A stretch of DNA of 31,970 bases from Candidatus Woesearchaeota archaeon (lineage in GTDB: Archaea; Nanobdellota; Nanobdellia; SCGC-AAA011-G17; CAZHCT01). The notes beneath the pieces are model-generated. The model saw only the letters and a program-made list of their open reading frames with translations. It was not told the DNA's origin and searched no databases. Both the position numbers and the translations under genes were made by a program. Positions 516 through 9,203 of the stretch are shown here, one piece after another. Location: contig CAZHCT010000002.1 in assembly GCA_964531355.1 (NCBI GenBank), positions 1 through 31,970 on the forward strand, written 5' to 3'. Position 1 is the first letter of the stretch, and the number at the start of each line of letters is the position of its first letter.

Positions 516-536
516 AATAGAATATTTAATGTTTTC
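516..536. repeat. 21-bp direct repeat, copy 1 (AATAGAATATTTAATGTTTTC)
   Basis: Exact match to 1239-1259. Contains a minus-strand TATA-like ATTAAATA (523-530) 23 nt upstream of the ATPase ATG. Confidence 0.95.
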
Positions 537-4034: not shown

Positions 4035-4721
4035 ATGAATGAGAGGGTATCTTCTGGGATAAATGGACTAGATCCTTTGATTAATGGGGGGTTTGTAAGC
4101 AATTCTATAAACTTAGTTACAGGCGGAGCAGGAGCTGGAAAAACAATATTTTTAGCTCATTTCCTGTATGATGGAGCTTTAAAGAATGAAAAGGGATTGT
4201 TTATTTCGTTTGAGCAGGATATAATAAGCGTAAAAAAGGATTTAGAGGGTTTTGGATTTAATTTTGACAAGCTTGAAAGCAAAGGATTAATAAAATTTAT
4301 TTATATGGGTCCTTACAAACAAAAAGATTTACAGGCTGAAATTCTTAAAGAGGTTAGCAAGTTTAAAGCTTCAAGAGTTGCAATAGATTCATTAAGCGTT
4401 TTTGCAATGTCCTTTAAAGATGAATATGAGATTAGAAGACAGATTTATACTTTAGGGAATTTATTGAACAGAATAAACTGCACTGTTATTGCTACTTCTG
4501 AAACGGTTGGAGAAGCTCCATTAGATGTCAGTTCTGGCGGAAGATTAACAAGATATGGCGTAGAAGAGTTTATTGCTGATTCTGTAATTACTCTGCATAA
4601 TGCTGGAATTGGAGGAGAAGCAGATAGAGCATTAAGAATTGTCAAGATGAGAAGGACAGCTCATGCTAGGGGAGTTGTACCAATGCAGATTACCAATAAA
4701 GGAATTGTTGTTAAAAAATAA
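4035..4721 (+). CDS. Single-domain KaiC/RAD55-like RecA-superfamily ATPase
   Basis: RVSSGINGLDPLINGGF, Walker A GGAGAGKT, Walker B RVAIDSLS, EEFIADSVITL, RALRIVKMRRTAH. Confidence 0.92.
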   Translation: MNERVSSGINGLDPLINGGFVSNSINLVTGGAGAGKTIFLAHFLYDGALKNEKGLFISFEQDIISVKKDLEGFGFNFDKLESKGLIKFIYMGPYKQKDLQAEILKEVSKFKASRVAIDSLSVFAMSFKDEYEIRRQIYTLGNLLNRINCTVIATSETVGEAPLDVSSGGRLTRYGVEEFIADSVITLHNAGIGGEADRALRIVKMRRTAHARGVVPMQITNKGIVVKK

Positions 4722-4941
4722 TATCTTCTTTTGAATATCTCTTGGTTGGAAAGGTACATTGATTCTTATAATAGGGGCATTTTGATCTTATTTTTTCTGC
4801 TTGTTTTTTTGTCAATTCAGAATAAAAATCAAGTATGTTGCATTTTTTATTGTAAAAGAATGAACAAGGAAATATTCCCTTAGATACAGAATTAATGTGG
4901 GCATATAGTAGTCTTATTTCCAATCTTGTATTATTGTGCAT
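4711..4941 (-). CDS. Small Cys-containing hypothetical protein
   Basis: 76-aa ORF with 4 Cys, promoter-like AAAGCTTATA upstream, convergent with the KaiC-like gene. Confidence 0.5.
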   Translation of the reverse strand: MHNNTRLEIRLLYAHINSVSKGIFPCSFFYNKKCNILDFYSELTKKQAEKIRSKCPYYKNQCTFPTKRYSKEDIIF

Positions 4942-5004
4942 TTATAACAAAAAATCTTTTAGAATATAAGCTTTTTTATTAAGTAAAACAATCTTTGCAA
5001 TTGC

Positions 5005-5024
5005 TATTTTCTAGACTTAAAATA
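5005..5024. repeat. 20-bp direct repeat, copy 1 (TATTTTCTAGACTTAAAATA)
   Basis: Exact match to 5549-5568; has 6-bp inverted ends (TATTTT...AAAATA). Confidence 0.95.
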
Positions 5025-5038
5025 ATTTATTATTTTAT

Positions 5039-5269
5039 TTATTTTCTAAGCAATTTAAGAAAATCCTCTCTGCCTAATCCGCTTTGAGAGATTATGCTTA
5101 ATAATGTTCCTTTCGCAAGTTCTTTGTGCTTTGGAACAACTACAGTTATCTTTTGTTCTGGAATATTTTTGCATAAGATCATATGGCTTCCTGATTGCCT
5201 AGTCAATATAAATCCTGTCTTCTTTAGCACCTTTACTATTTCATCACCTGAAACAATGGGTAATTTCAT
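5039..5269 (-). CDS. hicA: HicA-family type II toxin (mRNA interferase)
   Basis: MKLPIVSGDEIVKVLKKTGF...RQSGSHMIL...VVVPKHKELAKGTLLSIISQSGL is a HicA signature. Confidence 0.92.
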   Translation of the reverse strand: MKLPIVSGDEIVKVLKKTGFILTRQSGSHMILCKNIPEQKITVVVPKHKELAKGTLLSIISQSGLGREDFLKLLRK

Positions 5270-5505
5270 AAGAATAATCTTGTAGCTATTGGAGGCAGAA
5301 GTTTTTCTTGTTCTTTAGGAAACTTTTCTGGACATTCTTCTAAGTAAAGATTAATTGCATCTTTTATGTTTTCTATTGCTTCTTCATAACTATAACCTTG
5401 ACTAGCAATTCCTAAATTTAAGCAATGAGCAACAAAAACTTTTTTTCCATTAATTATTTCTTCATTTACAGCTATGTCAAAAACTCCATTCATTTTTCTT
5501 TCCAT
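5266..5505 (-). CDS. hicB: Short HicB-family antitoxin without a C-terminal DNA-binding domain
   Basis: FVAHCLNLGIASQGYSYEEAIENIKDAINLYLE; 4-nt overlap with hicA; ATG at 5505 preferred over GTG at 5511. Confidence 0.88.
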   Translation of the reverse strand: MERKMNGVFDIAVNEEIINGKKVFVAHCLNLGIASQGYSYEEAIENIKDAINLYLEECPEKFPKEQEKLLPPIATRLFL

Positions 5506-5509
5506 ATAC

Positions 5510-5582
5510 ACTTAATTGTTTTATTTATTTATAAGCTTTATGGTGCATTATTTTCTAGACTTAAAATACTTAATTGTTTTAT
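5510..5582. repeat. 15-bp direct repeat ACTTAATTGTTTTAT (5510-5524 and 5568-5582) plus 20-bp repeat copy 2 (5549-5568)
   Basis: Exact matches read directly; 5549-5582 is the 3' end of the 116-aa gene. Confidence 0.9.
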
Positions 5583-5898
5583 CCAATGCTTTTCTGAATC
5601 TTAATGATTTTTTTTCATTGATAAATGCTGCTTCTATCTCTGGATTTTTGCTTATGACAATCTCAAGAAAACCATTTTTTTCAAACATAAACCTTTCATA
5701 GCACTTGTTGTTTATTATGTCAAATCCCATTGAATAGATTTTTTCCTTAAAGTATTTTTCAAGAATTTTCATGAATTTTTCCAATGAGCTCCATGCTTCA
5801 TGAGTTTTCTTCAACTTTTTATCCAGTTTTAACTCTTCTTTTACTGCAAAAGGCAGTATACTTCTTTTATCATTGAGTCTTATTGTGTATGATTTCAT
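5548..5898 (-). CDS. Hypothetical protein
   Basis: 116-aa ORF with TATA-like TTTATATT about 25 nt upstream; no recognised motif. Confidence 0.65.
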   Translation of the reverse strand: MKSYTIRLNDKRSILPFAVKEELKLDKKLKKTHEAWSSLEKFMKILEKYFKEKIYSMGFDIINNKCYERFMFEKNGFLEIVISKNPEIEAAFINEKKSLRFRKALDKTIKYFKSRK

Positions 5899-7070: not shown

Positions 7071-9203
7071 TCAAATTTTTCTATGCTTTAATTTATATGC
7101 AATAGATGGATGCTCTCTCCCTACTTTTATTGAATGAATCAACAAGTATTTTTCCTTTGTTTCTGGAAGTGAATGCTTTAATGAATTTTTCAATGCATGA
7201 GCGAATTTTTTAGCCCGTTTTTTATATATGAAATGAGCTACCAATGTCAATGGCTTGTTTTCTATTACATCAATAAACCCATCTTTTTTGAAGATATATT
7301 TATTCCTATTTTCTTCTTCTGAATGTATATGAGTTATCGGCTCTCTGAAATTATGCTCTGTTGTTTTTATCAAGCTGCTTTCATTTATTAATGAGTTTAA
7401 GTCTATCAAATAAACATAATAATGCTTGAATCTTAATAACATAAATGGAATTAATAATGCCAATAATAATGGCCATAATGAGAATATAATTCCTGTTGTG
7501 ATAATTACTGCACTGAATGTTAATATGTTTTTTGGTATTACTGGAATTGAAATTGGCTGCTCTTCTACAGGGCATTTTTTGCATCCATCTCCGCAATCTA
7601 CTCCTGTTTCAAAGCAGTCCTGTTTTGAGTTATTGCAATGATTATGACAATCTCCTTGGGTTAATGCTAGATATTGCTGCTTGCATTCTTCATCTGGTCT
7701 TGTGTATTTTTTAAAACATCCTCTTTCATAAACACATTCTTCTATTTCATCTTTAACACATTTTTTATATGCATAAGAGCATTCATTCTTGCAGACACAT
7801 TCTCCATTACTGCAGGTTTGGTATGTTTCACAGTAAATTCTATTACTCCAATATCTGCAGCCATCTGGATTTTGCAGGCAAGTATCATAAGCTTCATTAT
7901 CATAAGTGCATTTTTTCTCGTTTAAGGTGTTACAGCTGCTTGAGCAACCTGATGAACTACCACCTGAGCTTCCTCCACCTGAAGAACTGCTACCTGAAGA
8001 GGGGCATGCACCGCAATCTGATGAACAAGAAGAGCATAATTCTGTTCCTGAGCATAATCCACCACCGCAGGTGTTTATTGTAAATGTGAAGTTATTGTCA
8101 TAGAAATCTGTTTGGACTATTGTTGAATTGTCTGTACATTGAATATTCCATAAATATGTTCCATCTCTTAATGATGGGATTGTAATGTTGAATGTTTTGT
8201 TTGAGTAATTGTAGTTTATATCTCTTGAATTGTTAGCTAACCAAGAACCTGAGAAATTTGCGTATAAAGTGCAGTTTACTACTAAATAATCATCTTCTAC
8301 TGTAAAGTTGAAGTCTATTGGGGAAGAGGTTATTGATGATGCATTTAATGGGTAAGTTAAGTTTGAGACGTTTGGAGGATTGTCTTGTGTTAATGTTAAT
8401 ATTACATCCTTGTTTCCAGAGCCTATTAATATTGATGAGTTTACTGCTCTGAAATTTCCTATTGTTGCATTTACAGAATATGTTGCATAATATGCTGTTC
8501 CTGATGCTGTATCATTTGTGTATTCTGTTGCATTGAAGATTGCATGACCTGATGAATTTGTTGTTAATGTGTAAGTTGCTGAGGTTGAGTTAAATGCTAT
8601 AACTGTTGCTCCATTTACATTTGTTCCATTTGTGTAATTTACTTTTGTTCTTATATACCATTGTCTTGTGTAGTTTGATGAGGTTGTGAAGTTTATTTTT
8701 GAGTAGTTTACGTTTAATAATGTTATATTAATTGATTTTGTTATTTTGATGTCATTATTTGTGCTTGCGCTTATGTTTGAATTCCATATTAATGTGTTAT
8801 TTGCCGAGTATAAATGGATTCCTTCTGTTGTGAAAGAGGTTATTCTGCAGTTTCTTATGTTCATATTTGAGTTTATGCTTGTTATGTTCATTCCAAAACC
8901 TGCTGAACCTCCTCCTGTTATTGTGTTGTCTTGGCAGTTTAGTTCTGTGTTTGCTGCGTTGAAGATGGCACCGTTTGCAGCAAGTATAGAGTCACAGTCA
9001 ATCGTTCCGATAATATCATAATAACCTGTTCCTTTTGTTTGATCACAATATCCTGCTGCATTTAATGTTGTTAATCCGGTTATACTTGGTTTTAAAAAAA
9101 ACTCTTTTATAATTCCAAAGCCAAATAATATAATAATAAGTAACAGTAAGAATGGAATAAGTTCAAATTTCTTTTTAATACTATTTACACCTTTTTTAAA
9201 CAT
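7071..9203 (-). CDS. Large cell-surface protein (N-terminal TM/signal, beta-helix, Ig-like domains, Ser/Gly linker, Cys-rich repeats, C-terminal TM)
   Basis: Hydrophobic N-terminus then SITGL; Asn/Thr-rich with many N-x-S/T sequons; CGGGLCSGTELCSSCSSDCGAC; SSGSSSSGGGSSGGSSSG; ETGVDCGDGCKKC; TM segment before a cytoplasmic tail. Confidence 0.8.
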   Translation of the reverse strand: MFKKGVNSIKKKFELIPFLLLLIIILFGFGIIKEFFLKPSITGLTTLNAAGYCDQTKGTGYYDIIGTIDCDSILAANGAIFNAANTELNCQDNTITGGGSAGFGMNITSINSNMNIRNCRITSFTTEGIHLYSANNTLIWNSNISASTNNDIKITKSINITLLNVNYSKINFTTSSNYTRQWYIRTKVNYTNGTNVNGATVIAFNSTSATYTLTTNSSGHAIFNATEYTNDTASGTAYYATYSVNATIGNFRAVNSSILIGSGNKDVILTLTQDNPPNVSNLTYPLNASSITSSPIDFNFTVEDDYLVVNCTLYANFSGSWLANNSRDINYNYSNKTFNITIPSLRDGTYLWNIQCTDNSTIVQTDFYDNNFTFTINTCGGGLCSGTELCSSCSSDCGACPSSGSSSSGGGSSGGSSSGCSSSCNTLNEKKCTYDNEAYDTCLQNPDGCRYWSNRIYCETYQTCSNGECVCKNECSYAYKKCVKDEIEECVYERGCFKKYTRPDEECKQQYLALTQGDCHNHCNNSKQDCFETGVDCGDGCKKCPVEEQPISIPVIPKNILTFSAVIITTGIIFSLWPLLLALLIPFMLLRFKHYYVYLIDLNSLINESSLIKTTEHNFREPITHIHSEEENRNKYIFKKDGFIDVIENKPLTLVAHFIYKKRAKKFAHALKNSLKHSLPETKEKYLLIHSIKVGREHPSIAYKLKHRKI

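What the first reader, a model, noticed from the sequence alone, without database searches (positions are those of the whole stretch)
5005..5582. hicBA bounded by a 20-bp direct repeat that duplicates the 3' end of the neighbouring gene, with interleaved A-B-promoter-A-hicBA-B structure
Seen on the minus strand: the 116-aa gene ends with A (ATAAAACAATTAAGT) then B (TATTTTAAGTCTAGAAAATA). Next come a 24-nt promoter spacer, a second A just before hicB, hicB-hicA, and a second B after hicA. The module therefore carries both halves of its target, split around the TA genes. B-B recombination would release 544 bp and leave the host gene intact. Inference: integration at a gene 3' end with target duplication, as integrative elements do, but for a 0.5-kb unit with no recombinase gene.
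Basis: partly seen in the sequence, partly recalled or inferred. Interest (0 to 1): 0.72.

Follow-up and report, generated by a model that had tools for sequence, protein, structure and literature searches.

The report
Recombinase-free hicBA cassette, duplicated target
A 0.5-kb toxin-antitoxin gene pair (hicB-hicA) in a tiny groundwater archaeon sits right after a neighbouring gene's stop codon between two copies of that gene's last ~34 bases, and about a third of related hicBA pairs in the same archaeal order carry the same kind of scar at unrelated sites, so these selfish gene pairs seem to insert without an enzyme of their own.

Summary
A 20-nt exact repeat lies at 5005-5024 and 5549-5568, extending to 34 nt at 91% identity, and a 15-nt exact repeat lies at 5510-5524 and 5568-5582. 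Together they bracket hicB-hicA. It is not a misassembly: contigs from four sequencing runs reproduce both junctions.

The left copy is the native 3' end of the 116-aa gene. All 8 close orthologues end the same way, and three loci without hicBA carry one copy only.

The pattern is general. Of 27 hicBA loci in this archaeal order, 10 have locus-specific flanking direct repeats of 28-68 nt, against 0 of 702 cross-locus controls. The repeats cover stop codons or promoters, so neighbouring genes stay intact. The cassettes share no conserved ends, inverted repeats or hairpins, and encode no recombinase.

Best reading: insertion with long target duplication, so far described for bacterial restriction-modification genes. 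Here the cargo is an RNA-targeting toxin-antitoxin pair in a DPANN-type archaeon, and the mechanism is unknown.

The "interleaved half-site" idea is not supported. No excision product was seen, and the locus history involves further rearrangements.

This scan has noted the same phenomenon on other DNA, for example e1-965710.

The parts
5548..5898 (-). 116-aa gene of unknown function. This is the target gene; its last 34 nt plus stop codon form the left repeat copy.
   Evidence: ORF. There are 8 orthologues at 69-91% identity; seven are 116 aa and one is 109 aa, and all end KTI[KNR]YF[KN]xxx*. It has no Pfam or NCBIfam hit. Distant 152-154-aa homologues exist, and a related domain forms the C-terminus of ORF 7071-9203.
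5549..5582 (-). Left repeat copy (A1 5568-5582 plus B1 5549-5568). It is the native 3' end of the 116-aa gene and encodes DKTIKYFKSRK.
   Evidence: A single homologous copy is present in loci without hicBA (L042, L043, L044).
5525..5548 (-). 24-nt spacer carrying an archaeal BRE/TATA-like box (AAAGCTTATAAATA, 5526-5539), about 20 nt upstream of the hicB ATG. This is the probable promoter of a leaderless hicBA transcript.
   Evidence: Sequence. The motif AAAGNTTATAWA occurs 32 times in the genome, often with the first downstream ATG 22-26 nt after its end. The promoter role is inferred, not shown.
5510..5524 (-). A2, a 15-nt exact copy of the gene-end A, 4 nt upstream of the hicB ATG. Its origin is unexplained: a relic of an earlier duplication, or the product of short-tract gene conversion.
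   Evidence: Sister contigs have ATAAAACAATCAAGT here, matching their own gene end at 11-12 of 15 positions.
5266..5505 (-). hicB antitoxin, single-domain, 79 aa from the ATG at 5505. The ORF finder starts it at the GTG at 5511.
   Evidence: 114 homologues at 51-97% identity, named HicB family by NCBI and JGI. Pfam gives only a weak DUF7387 hit. The AlphaFold model has pLDDT 82.8 and a three-strand-plus-helix fold; the top PDB match is 2yzt with probability 0.98.
5039..5269 (-). hicA toxin, 76 aa. Its start overlaps the hicB stop (ATGA), and it contains the GSH motif.
   Evidence: PF07927 HicA_toxin, E = 4.5e-18, 65.5 bits against a cut-off of 27. Sequence.
5005..5038 (-). Right repeat copy (A' 5025-5038 with 3 mismatches, plus B2 5005-5024 exact), starting directly after the hicA stop codon. 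Its last 11 nt (5005-5015) also match the native sequence upstream of the next gene.
   Evidence: Compared with L041 and L045 and with L075 and L076.
4711..4941 (-). 76-aa Cys-rich ORF downstream, with its own BRE/TATA-like box at about 4965-4978. It is the neighbour that follows the right repeat copy.
   Evidence: One homologue at 75% identity on two contigs.

Best explanation
The hicB-hicA pair is a roughly 0.5-kb selfish toxin-antitoxin cassette. It was inserted immediately after the stop codon of the 116-aa gene by a process that duplicated about 30-34 nt of the target, the gene's 3' end. The cassette encodes no enzyme for this. This is 'insertion with long target duplication'. Because the duplicate spans the stop codon, the host gene stays intact. 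The cassette brings, or has captured, its own BRE/TATA promoter. Shown here: the repeats; their host origin; a single copy in loci without hicBA; the same kind of scar at 10 of 27 hicBA loci in the order, at unrelated targets; and the lack of conserved cassette ends. Inferred: the insertion happened in a common ancestor of this strain and the strains behind contigs L041 and L045. Afterwards the copies diverged or were exchanged by recombination between strains. In this lineage a degraded ParE-antitoxin remnant downstream was deleted between two TCTAGAAAATA words, which made B2 a perfect copy of B1. The molecular mechanism is not shown. I favour host-driven illegitimate joining of a DNA fragment at two staggered positions, by break repair or template switching, possibly on two chromosome copies. 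Selection in these gene-dense genomes would then keep only events whose duplication preserves both neighbours.
For: The repeats and anatomy are established. HicA matches PF07927, and HicB homologues are named HicB. A-B is the native gene end: the C-terminal tail is conserved in all 8 orthologues, and one copy only is present in L042, L043 and L044, which lack hicBA. The left junction, and a gene-end copy after hicA, are shared with L041 and L045; L039 and L040 share the left junction. Assemblies of four runs agree. In the survey, 10 of 27 loci have a same-locus direct repeat scoring 21 or more. Controls gave 0 of 702 cross-locus pairs at 20 or more (maximum 18), an inverted-repeat maximum of 12, and 2 of 594 random places in this genome, both from one large coding repeat. 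The repeats sit on stop codons or promoters of neighbouring genes. Two other loci also show a single-copy target in relatives: the G085 repeat against G086 and the G185 repeat against G033 and G006. Homology between cassettes is limited to roughly the promoter plus the coding region. The cassette contains no recombinase. In the genome, no Cas1, TnpB or DDE_Tnp_1 was found, and the two tyrosine recombinases and the one rve gene lie on other contigs. The same mode is published for restriction-modification genes, including the remark that repeats often span start or stop codons (PMC2853133).
Against: No clean empty site of the form gene-B-GCAATTGC-76-aa ORF was found. Loci without hicBA carry other genes in that position, so insertion and replacement cannot be fully separated. 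A2 is not explained by a single duplication. B1 and B2 co-vary between lineages at position 9: G in both copies here, T in both in L041 and L045. That needs gene conversion, recombination between strains or repeated insertion. Most repeats fall between 21 and 45 nt, a fairly narrow range that could point to an enzyme acting as a ruler rather than random joining. No junction reads for excision or circles were available, because only contigs could be laid.
Confidence: 0.7

Rival explanations
1. The cassette moves by site-specific recombination in trans, in the manner of an integron or a Xer-dependent element. A host tyrosine recombinase would recombine an att-like site on a circular hicBA cassette with the gene end, so the repeats would be attL and attR.
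For: The genome encodes two XerA-type tyrosine recombinases. Both lie near contig ends, and the best match of one is the integron-integrase subfamily, though below its cut-off. All three mismatches of the 34-nt repeat lie in the part distal to B, as expected if the crossover falls inside B. A' resembles the gene-end allele of other strains. The same gene's 3' end (...KKTHGM...) carries an insert in two genomes of different families, with different cargo.
Against: Repeat sequences at the 10 loci are unrelated and share no core. B has no significant hairpin, with z = -0.2. Cassettes share no conserved non-coding ends. Neither recombinase is linked to any cassette. Integron cassettes duplicate only a few bases.
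Confidence: 0.1
2. The B-B identity is a by-product of local rearrangement rather than of the insertion. B2 would have been assembled from a short gene-end fragment plus pre-existing intergenic sequence by deletion or gene conversion, and hicBA would have arrived by homologous replacement of the His_Phos_1 segment between the conserved flanks (the 116-aa gene and KaiC).
For: TCTAGAAAATAG followed by CAATTGC is present upstream of the 77-aa ORF in L075 and L076 with no gene-end copy beside it. In L041 and L045 the two halves of B2 are about 240 nt apart, separated by a degraded antitoxin gene. Haplotypes with and without hicBA differ by a replacement between conserved flanks. The C-terminal tail alleles of the 116-aa gene are shuffled relative to the rest of the gene.
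Against: In all three contigs that cover it, 16-23 nt of clearly gene-end-derived sequence lie directly after the hicA stop codon. That still requires a duplication of the gene end linked to hicBA. The same architecture at 9 other, unrelated loci argues for a common insertion-linked process.
Confidence: 0.13
3. The cassette is a non-autonomous transposon, like a MITE or mobile insertion cassette, moved in trans by a transposase that makes long staggered cuts, as the Mycoplasma IS1630/IS1634-type elements do.
For: Long, variable target duplications are known for such insertion sequences: 19-26 bp for IS1630 is cited in PMC2853133. One rve-type DDE gene exists in the genome.
Against: The cassette ends show no terminal inverted repeats or conserved sequence. 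The inverted-repeat control scored no higher than 12. No DDE_Tnp_1 or TnpB was found. Cassette boundaries vary from -10 to +55 nt around the hicA stop codon.
Confidence: 0.05
4. The repeat is a chance low-complexity match or an assembly artefact.
For: The sequence is AT-rich (30% G+C). B matches unrelated contigs in large collections by chance.
Against: Shuffle and genome controls exclude chance. Four independent assemblies and three other metagenome contigs agree.
Confidence: 0.02

Closest known systems
[quoted passage not shown] 2000, Gene 259:99; Furuta, Abe and Kobayashi 2010, NAR, PMC2853133)
   Same: An addiction-type gene unit with no mobility gene is flanked by direct repeats much longer than transposon duplications. 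The repeat is host sequence, present once at the empty site. Repeats often span a start or stop codon, so the target gene stays intact.
   Different: The cargo here is an RNA-targeting type II toxin-antitoxin pair, not a DNA-cutting restriction-modification system, so the published idea that the cargo's own DNA breakage drives insertion cannot apply. The host is a DPANN-type archaeon. The repeats are shorter (21-45 nt in most cases, against a threshold of more than 30 bp and up to the order of 100 bp), and the unit is only about 0.5 kb.
Integron gene cassettes, including the integrons reported in Archaea (bioRxiv 10.1101/2022.02.06.479319; seen in the list, not read)
   Same: Both are small one- or two-gene cassettes, often toxin-antitoxin pairs, without a recombinase of their own. 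A XerA/IntI-like recombinase is encoded elsewhere in the genome.
   Different: There is no attC-like hairpin, no shared core sequence among repeats, no cassette array next to an integrase, and the duplication is 20-45 nt of host sequence.
Integrative elements that target the 3' ends of tRNA or protein genes and restore them (attL/attR)
   Same: The gene's 3' end is duplicated so that the gene remains intact, and direct repeats bound the insert.
   Different: These elements carry an integrase and a fixed att site. Here there is no integrase, and the repeat sequence differs at each locus.
HicAB type II toxin-antitoxin systems
   Same: A HicA toxin domain over the Pfam cut-off, an upstream overlapping antitoxin gene, and patchy distribution (32 of 240 genomes).
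   Different: HicB here has 79 aa and only the N-terminal domain. No DNA-binding domain was detected, and Pfam places its relatives in DUF7387.

Membership tests
HicA toxin (PF07927) | Match to the family profile above the curated cut-off | tested here: met
   E = 4.5e-18, 65.5 bits against a cut-off of 27, covering profile positions 1-58 of 58.
HicA toxin (PF07927) | Small protein carrying the conserved His of the G-S-H motif, encoded next to and co-oriented with its antitoxin gene | tested here: met
   76 aa, with the sequence ...RQSGSHMIL..., and an ATGA overlap with hicB. The catalytic role of the His rests on established knowledge of HicA and was not tested here.
HicB antitoxin | HicB N-terminal fold, or a match to a HicB family profile | tested here: inconclusive
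   Pfam gives only DUF7387 at E = 0.0016, below the cut-off, and NCBIfam gives nothing. Homologues at 51-83% identity are named HicB family by NCBI and JGI. The model (pLDDT 82.8) has three strands plus a helix. The best PDB match is 2yzt (TTHA1756) with probability 0.98, E = 0.039 and TM 0.48-0.56. By sequence the match to 2yzt has E = 0.21.
HicB antitoxin | C-terminal DNA-binding domain (RHH or HTH) for autoregulation | tested here: not met
   The protein has 79 aa, with no second domain in the model or in the profile searches. From my own knowledge, single-domain HicB proteins exist.
Insertion with long target duplication | Direct repeats flank the insert, are host-derived, and are single-copy where the insert is absent | tested here: met
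   The gene-end tail is conserved in all 8 orthologues, and one copy only is present in L042, L043 and L044. Caveat: those loci hold other genes downstream, so they are not clean empty sites. Two other loci show the same pattern.
Insertion with long target duplication | Repeat longer than classical transposon duplications, with length and sequence varying from locus to locus | tested here: met
   34 nt here; 28-45 nt at seven other loci and 58-68 nt at two, all with different sequences.
Insertion with long target duplication | No mobility gene in or beside the inserted unit | tested here: met
   The unit holds only hicB and hicA. The neighbours are the 116-aa gene, a 76-aa ORF, KaiC and Fic. 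The recombinase and rve genes are on other contigs.
Insertion with long target duplication | Cargo is a restriction-modification system, as in the published cases | tested here: not met
   The cargo is hicBA. This makes the finding a variant of the published kind.
Integron gene cassette | attC recombination site (imperfect palindrome or hairpin) at the cassette's 3' end | tested here: not met
   The B region folds no better than shuffled sequence, z = -0.21 and -0.05. No shared motif is seen among cassette ends.
Integron gene cassette | Position in an array next to an integron integrase and attI | tested here: not met
   The tyrosine recombinases lie on contigs C42 and C22, not in this window.
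Non-autonomous transposon (MITE or mobile insertion cassette) | Terminal inverted repeats and conserved ends | tested here: not met
   No inverted repeat lies at the cassette ends. The inverted control scored no higher than 12. Homology between cassettes stops at the coding region or promoter.

The most novel reading that the evidence does not exclude
DPANN archaea, and perhaps other organisms with very small genomes, may possess a dedicated but unidentified trans-acting integration route. Candidates are the second XerA/IntI-like recombinase or a ruler-type nuclease or integrase. It would insert promoter-sized-target 'micro-cassettes' (hicBA, PIN-antitoxin pairs, AAA_14-DUF4143 ATPases, small wHTH genes) at gene boundaries with a defined stagger of about 20-45 nt. 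That would be a new class of mobile element with neither its own enzyme nor conserved ends.
Probability: 0.15. Interest if true: 0.85.

Novelty: new variant of a known kind. Interest (0 to 1): 0.6.

Why it matters
How chromosomal toxin-antitoxin pairs spread is an old open question, because most sit in genomes with no visible vehicle. In one archaeal order, 10 of 27 hicBA loci carry a long duplication of their own target and no mobility gene, and the same genome shows similar scars around ATPase and PIN cassettes. If this holds, insertion with long target duplication is not a peculiarity of DNA-cutting restriction-modification systems. It would be a general, host-driven entry route for small selfish modules, and it keeps neighbouring genes intact in extremely gene-dense genomes. 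The question also becomes testable. Recent events with perfect repeats, such as those in G146 and G173, define junctions that could be reproduced experimentally or sought in raw reads.

Tried and rejected
1. I scanned the metagenome and genome collections for exact matches to B, hoping to find empty sites. All 18 hits lie in unrelated contexts and are chance matches.
2. I first suspected that the 116-aa gene had been truncated by the insertion, because the 152-154-aa homologues lose similarity exactly at the A|B boundary. I rejected this: the 8 close orthologues (seven of 116 aa, one of 109 aa) all end with the B-encoded tail, including those without hicBA.
3. I first read L041 and L045 as having B2 split by a 240-nt insertion. 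I revised this: the left part is a copy of the alternative NKKK* gene-end allele, and the 240 nt are a degraded antitoxin gene that is native to that place.
4. I looked for an empty-site or circle junction in sequencing runs. Only assembled contigs could be laid, and no 5024/5568 joint appeared. Contigs drop rare variants, so this says nothing about absence.
5. I tested B as a hairpin or attC-like site. It is not significant.
6. I searched the genome for Cas1, TnpB and DDE_Tnp_1. None was found in this 89%-complete genome.
7. The search for homologues of the 76-aa ORF gave only one relative and no true empty site.
8. NCBIfam gave no hit for any of the four small proteins.

Full report
**Observation.** On the minus strand the 116-aa ORF (5548-5898) ends ...GAT AAA ACA ATT AAG TAT TTT AAG TCT AGA AAA TAA.
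- The repeat finder reports a 34-nt direct repeat, 5005-5038 against 5549-5582. It is 91% identical, its last 20 nt ("B") are exact, and the spacing is 544.
- It also reports a 15-nt exact repeat ("A") at 5510-5524 and 5568-5582.
- With up to 3 mismatches, B has only these two matches in the window, against 0.09 expected.
- In the 743-kb genome B has no other copy. The only near match is a 1-mismatch hit inside a methyltransferase ORF, which I take as chance.
- An exact direct match of 15 nt or more between adjacent 34-nt and 47-nt stretches occurs at 0.075% of random places in this genome.

Between the repeats lie a 24-nt spacer with a BRE/TATA-like AAAGCTTATAAATA, then A2, hicB and hicA.
- HicA matches PF07927 at E = 4.5e-18.
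- The 79-aa upstream protein has 114 close homologues that NCBI and JGI call HicB. Its model has three strands plus a helix, and its best PDB match is 2yzt.
- The two genes overlap by ATGA.

**Not an assembly artefact.** The locus is present in four groundwater metagenome runs of one study.
- A 927-nt contig of X3 covers 4943-5869 without a difference.
- Contigs of X1, X2 and X4 cover each repeat copy with its flanks.
- Contigs L039, L040, L041 and L045 from other assemblies share the left junction at 91-97% identity.

**The organism.** The genome has 743 kb in 65 contigs, is 89% complete and has 30% G+C. HicB relatives come from records named Woesearchaeota and Nanoarchaeota. I infer a DPANN-type archaeon from groundwater. 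It has no close relative among the genomes held: every neighbour belongs to another family of the same order.

**Is A-B the gene's own end?** Distant homologues of 152-154 aa lose similarity exactly at the A|B boundary, which at first suggested a truncation. The 8 close orthologues (69-91% identity) settle it: seven are 116 aa and one is 109 aa, and all end KTI[KNR]YF[KN]xxx*. So the B-encoded tail is native in this clade.

Three of these orthologues sit in loci without hicBA (L042, L043, L044). There the gene end occurs once, followed by a TATA box and a His_Phos_1 gene. L044 comes from the same sample as the hicBA-bearing contig L040.

**The locus history is more complex than one insertion.**
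- L043 overlaps L075 at 97% identity. The composite hicBA-free haplotype is: gene, His_Phos_1, ParE (minus), antitoxin (minus)...AATCTAGAAAATAGCAATTGC, 77-aa ORF, KaiC.
- In L041 and L045, hicBA is followed by AATTAGATATTTTAAT AAAAAGAAATAATCA. This is a copy of the NKKK*-type gene end, including 3 nt past the stop, as in L043.
- Next comes a degraded antitoxin remnant, then TCTAGAAAATAGCAATTGC and the 77-aa ORF.
- A gene-end copy directly after the hicA stop codon is therefore common to all three contigs that cover that place. Its sequence differs between strains.
- The 11 nt TCTAGAAAATA in front of GCAATTGC are present in L075 and L076 without an adjoining gene-end copy.

The simplest reading for this window is as follows, and it is inference. 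After the duplication, the remnant between the SRK-type right copy and that 11-nt word was deleted by recombination between the two words. This explains why B2 is followed by G (TAG) while B1 is followed by A (TAA). It also explains why B-B identity is perfect here. The 11-nt word may itself be the relic of an older duplication at the same gene end.

Three things remain unexplained:
- A2 is 15/15 identical to A1 here but only 11-12/15 in the sister contigs. A match of 10 nt or more has a chance of about 1%.
- Position 9 of B co-varies between lineages in both copies.
- The tail alleles (SRK, KRK, KKK, FRK) are shuffled relative to the rest of the gene.

**Generality.** HicB homologues occur in 32 of 240 genomes of the order, in 30 of 132 genera. 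For 27 loci I compared 400 nt upstream of hicB with 400 nt downstream of hicA.
- Ten loci have a direct repeat scoring 21-35, with match +1 and mismatch -2.
- The remaining loci score 8-14.
- Controls: 0 of 702 cross-locus pairs reach 20 (maximum 18, 99th percentile 14), and same-locus inverted repeats score at most 12.
- Of 594 random 480-nt gaps in this genome, 2 reach 20, and both lie in one large coding repeat.

The ten repeats are 28-68 nt long, eight of them 28-45 nt, and all have different sequences. They sit on gene boundaries:
- the stop codon of the upstream gene (this window, G004, G146);
- the BRE/TATA box of the downstream gene, whose ATG follows 17-24 nt after the right copy (G146, G185, G053);
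- the stop codon of a convergent gene (G017).

A weaker repeat in G039 (score 14, below the threshold) appears by eye to overlap the 3' end of a tRNA-like sequence. Rfam reported no tRNA in that locus.

Two further observations support a host origin for the repeats:
- Homology between cassettes from different loci is confined to about 40 nt upstream of hicB through the hicA stop codon. I saw no terminal inverted repeats.
- The target is single-copy in relatives for two other loci: the 45-nt repeat of G085 against its sister species G086, and the 37-nt promoter repeat of G185 against G033 and G006.

**Other cassettes in the same genome.** A scan for direct repeats 250-2500 nt apart found the same architecture around other cargo:
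- A 417-aa AAA_14-DUF4143 ATPase lies between 39-nt copies of a gene end. The orthologous gene end carries hicBA in G004.
- Two more such ATPases are bounded by repeats; for one, the 45-nt repeat includes the 3' part of a tRNA gene.
- An ATPase plus a second hicBA lie between 45-nt copies of a hicA 3' end.
- Two tandem PIN-antitoxin units share 26-32-nt boundaries.
- In this window, a 21-nt exact repeat at 516 and 1239 encloses two small ORFs.

Four of the seven strongest AAA_14 genes are repeat-bounded.

**Mechanism.** The cassette encodes only HicB and HicA.
- The genome has two XerA-type tyrosine recombinases on other contigs, one of them closest to the integron-integrase subfamily but below its cut-off.
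- It has one rve gene.
- No Cas1, TnpB or DDE_Tnp_1 was found.
- B has no significant hairpin.

With unrelated repeat sequences and no conserved ends, att-type or transposase-type models fit poorly. The closest published phenomenon is insertion with long target duplication of restriction-modification units. Its features match: no mobility gene, repeats over 30 bp, and repeats that often span start or stop codons (PMC2853133; PMC3874152). Those authors suggested that the cargo's own DNA breakage is involved. That cannot hold for an RNase toxin.

I therefore favour a host-level process, though this is inferred and untested. Two illegitimate joints would form at staggered target positions, by break repair or template switching and possibly on two chromosome copies. 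Selection would then filter the outcomes: in these compact genomes only events that duplicate enough sequence to keep the stop codon or promoter of both neighbours would survive. The rather narrow 21-45-nt range leaves room for an enzyme acting as a ruler.

**Novelty.** Four full-text searches found no description of this mode for toxin-antitoxin cassettes or for archaea. Earlier notes of this scan report the same phenomenon on other DNA, including a hicBA cassette with a 51-bp duplication in another DPANN genome. Those notes are unverified. My survey is independent of them and agrees.

**Verdict.** The interpretation "target duplication at a gene end, no recombinase" is supported. The "interleaved half-sites" and att-like readings are not.

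Noticed in passing
window 516-536 and 1239-1259: An exact 21-nt direct repeat (AATAGAATATTTAATGTTTTC), spacing 723, encloses two small divergent ORFs (109 aa on the minus strand, 79 aa on the plus strand) with no Pfam or NCBIfam hit. The architecture is the same as for hicBA.
   Followed up: partly
own genome: C16 11442/12828; C1 47279/48658; C1 50038/51474; C4 8299/10310 (loci L077, L080, L078): Four AAA_14-DUF4143 ATPase genes (411-433 aa) are each bracketed by 29-45-nt direct repeats. One repeat includes the 3' part of a tRNA gene. One bracket also contains a second hicBA, and its repeat is a copy of the hicA 3' end.
   Followed up: partly
own genome C16 10825-11484 and locus L019 (G004): The 3' end of the same orthologous gene (C-terminus ...V[FY]KKTHGM...) is duplicated around an ATPase gene in this genome and around hicBA in a genome of another family. 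This may be an insertion hot spot.
   Followed up: partly
own genome C4 24309-25770 (locus L079): Two tandem PIN_2-plus-antitoxin units of about 751 nt have diverged coding regions but near-identical 26-nt and 32-nt boundary sequences.
   Followed up: no
own genome, contigs C42 (locus L085 1189-2094) and C22 (locus L086 1207-2151): Two XerA-type tyrosine recombinases occur in this 0.74-Mb genome, both within about 0.5-0.7 kb of a contig end. The best match of the second is the integron-integrase subfamily TIGR02249, at 222 bits against a cut-off of 265.
   Followed up: partly
L061 1460-1648 and L063 1616-1794: An RT-16 RNA (RF03019, 79-82 bits) lies next to hicBA in two genomes of different families. 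In these loci the flanking repeats are 58-68 nt long and G+C-rich.
   Followed up: no
window 4984-5039 (runs X1, X4): Contigs in two runs match only about 4984-5038 and then continue with unrelated sequence exactly at the hicA stop codon. They may come from other strains with different cargo at this boundary.
   Followed up: no
window 7071-9203 (minus) and 5548-5898 (minus): The C-terminal part of the 710-aa membrane-anchored, Cys-rich protein (roughly its last 100 residues) is homologous to the 116-aa protein family, and more so to its 152-154-aa relatives. This is an unnamed domain family.
   Followed up: no
own genome C33 (locus L003 977-1802): A class I methyltransferase-like gene is split into two ORFs (197 and 72 aa) at an A9 run. 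This is either a frameshift or a sequencing error.
   Followed up: no
L072 (G086) against L073 (G085): In two species of one genus the hicBA cassette sits on opposite sides of the same roughly 650-nt gene. In G086 it carries upstream a copy of the sequence that forms the flanking repeat in G085, as if the cassette had moved together with one repeat copy.
   Followed up: partly
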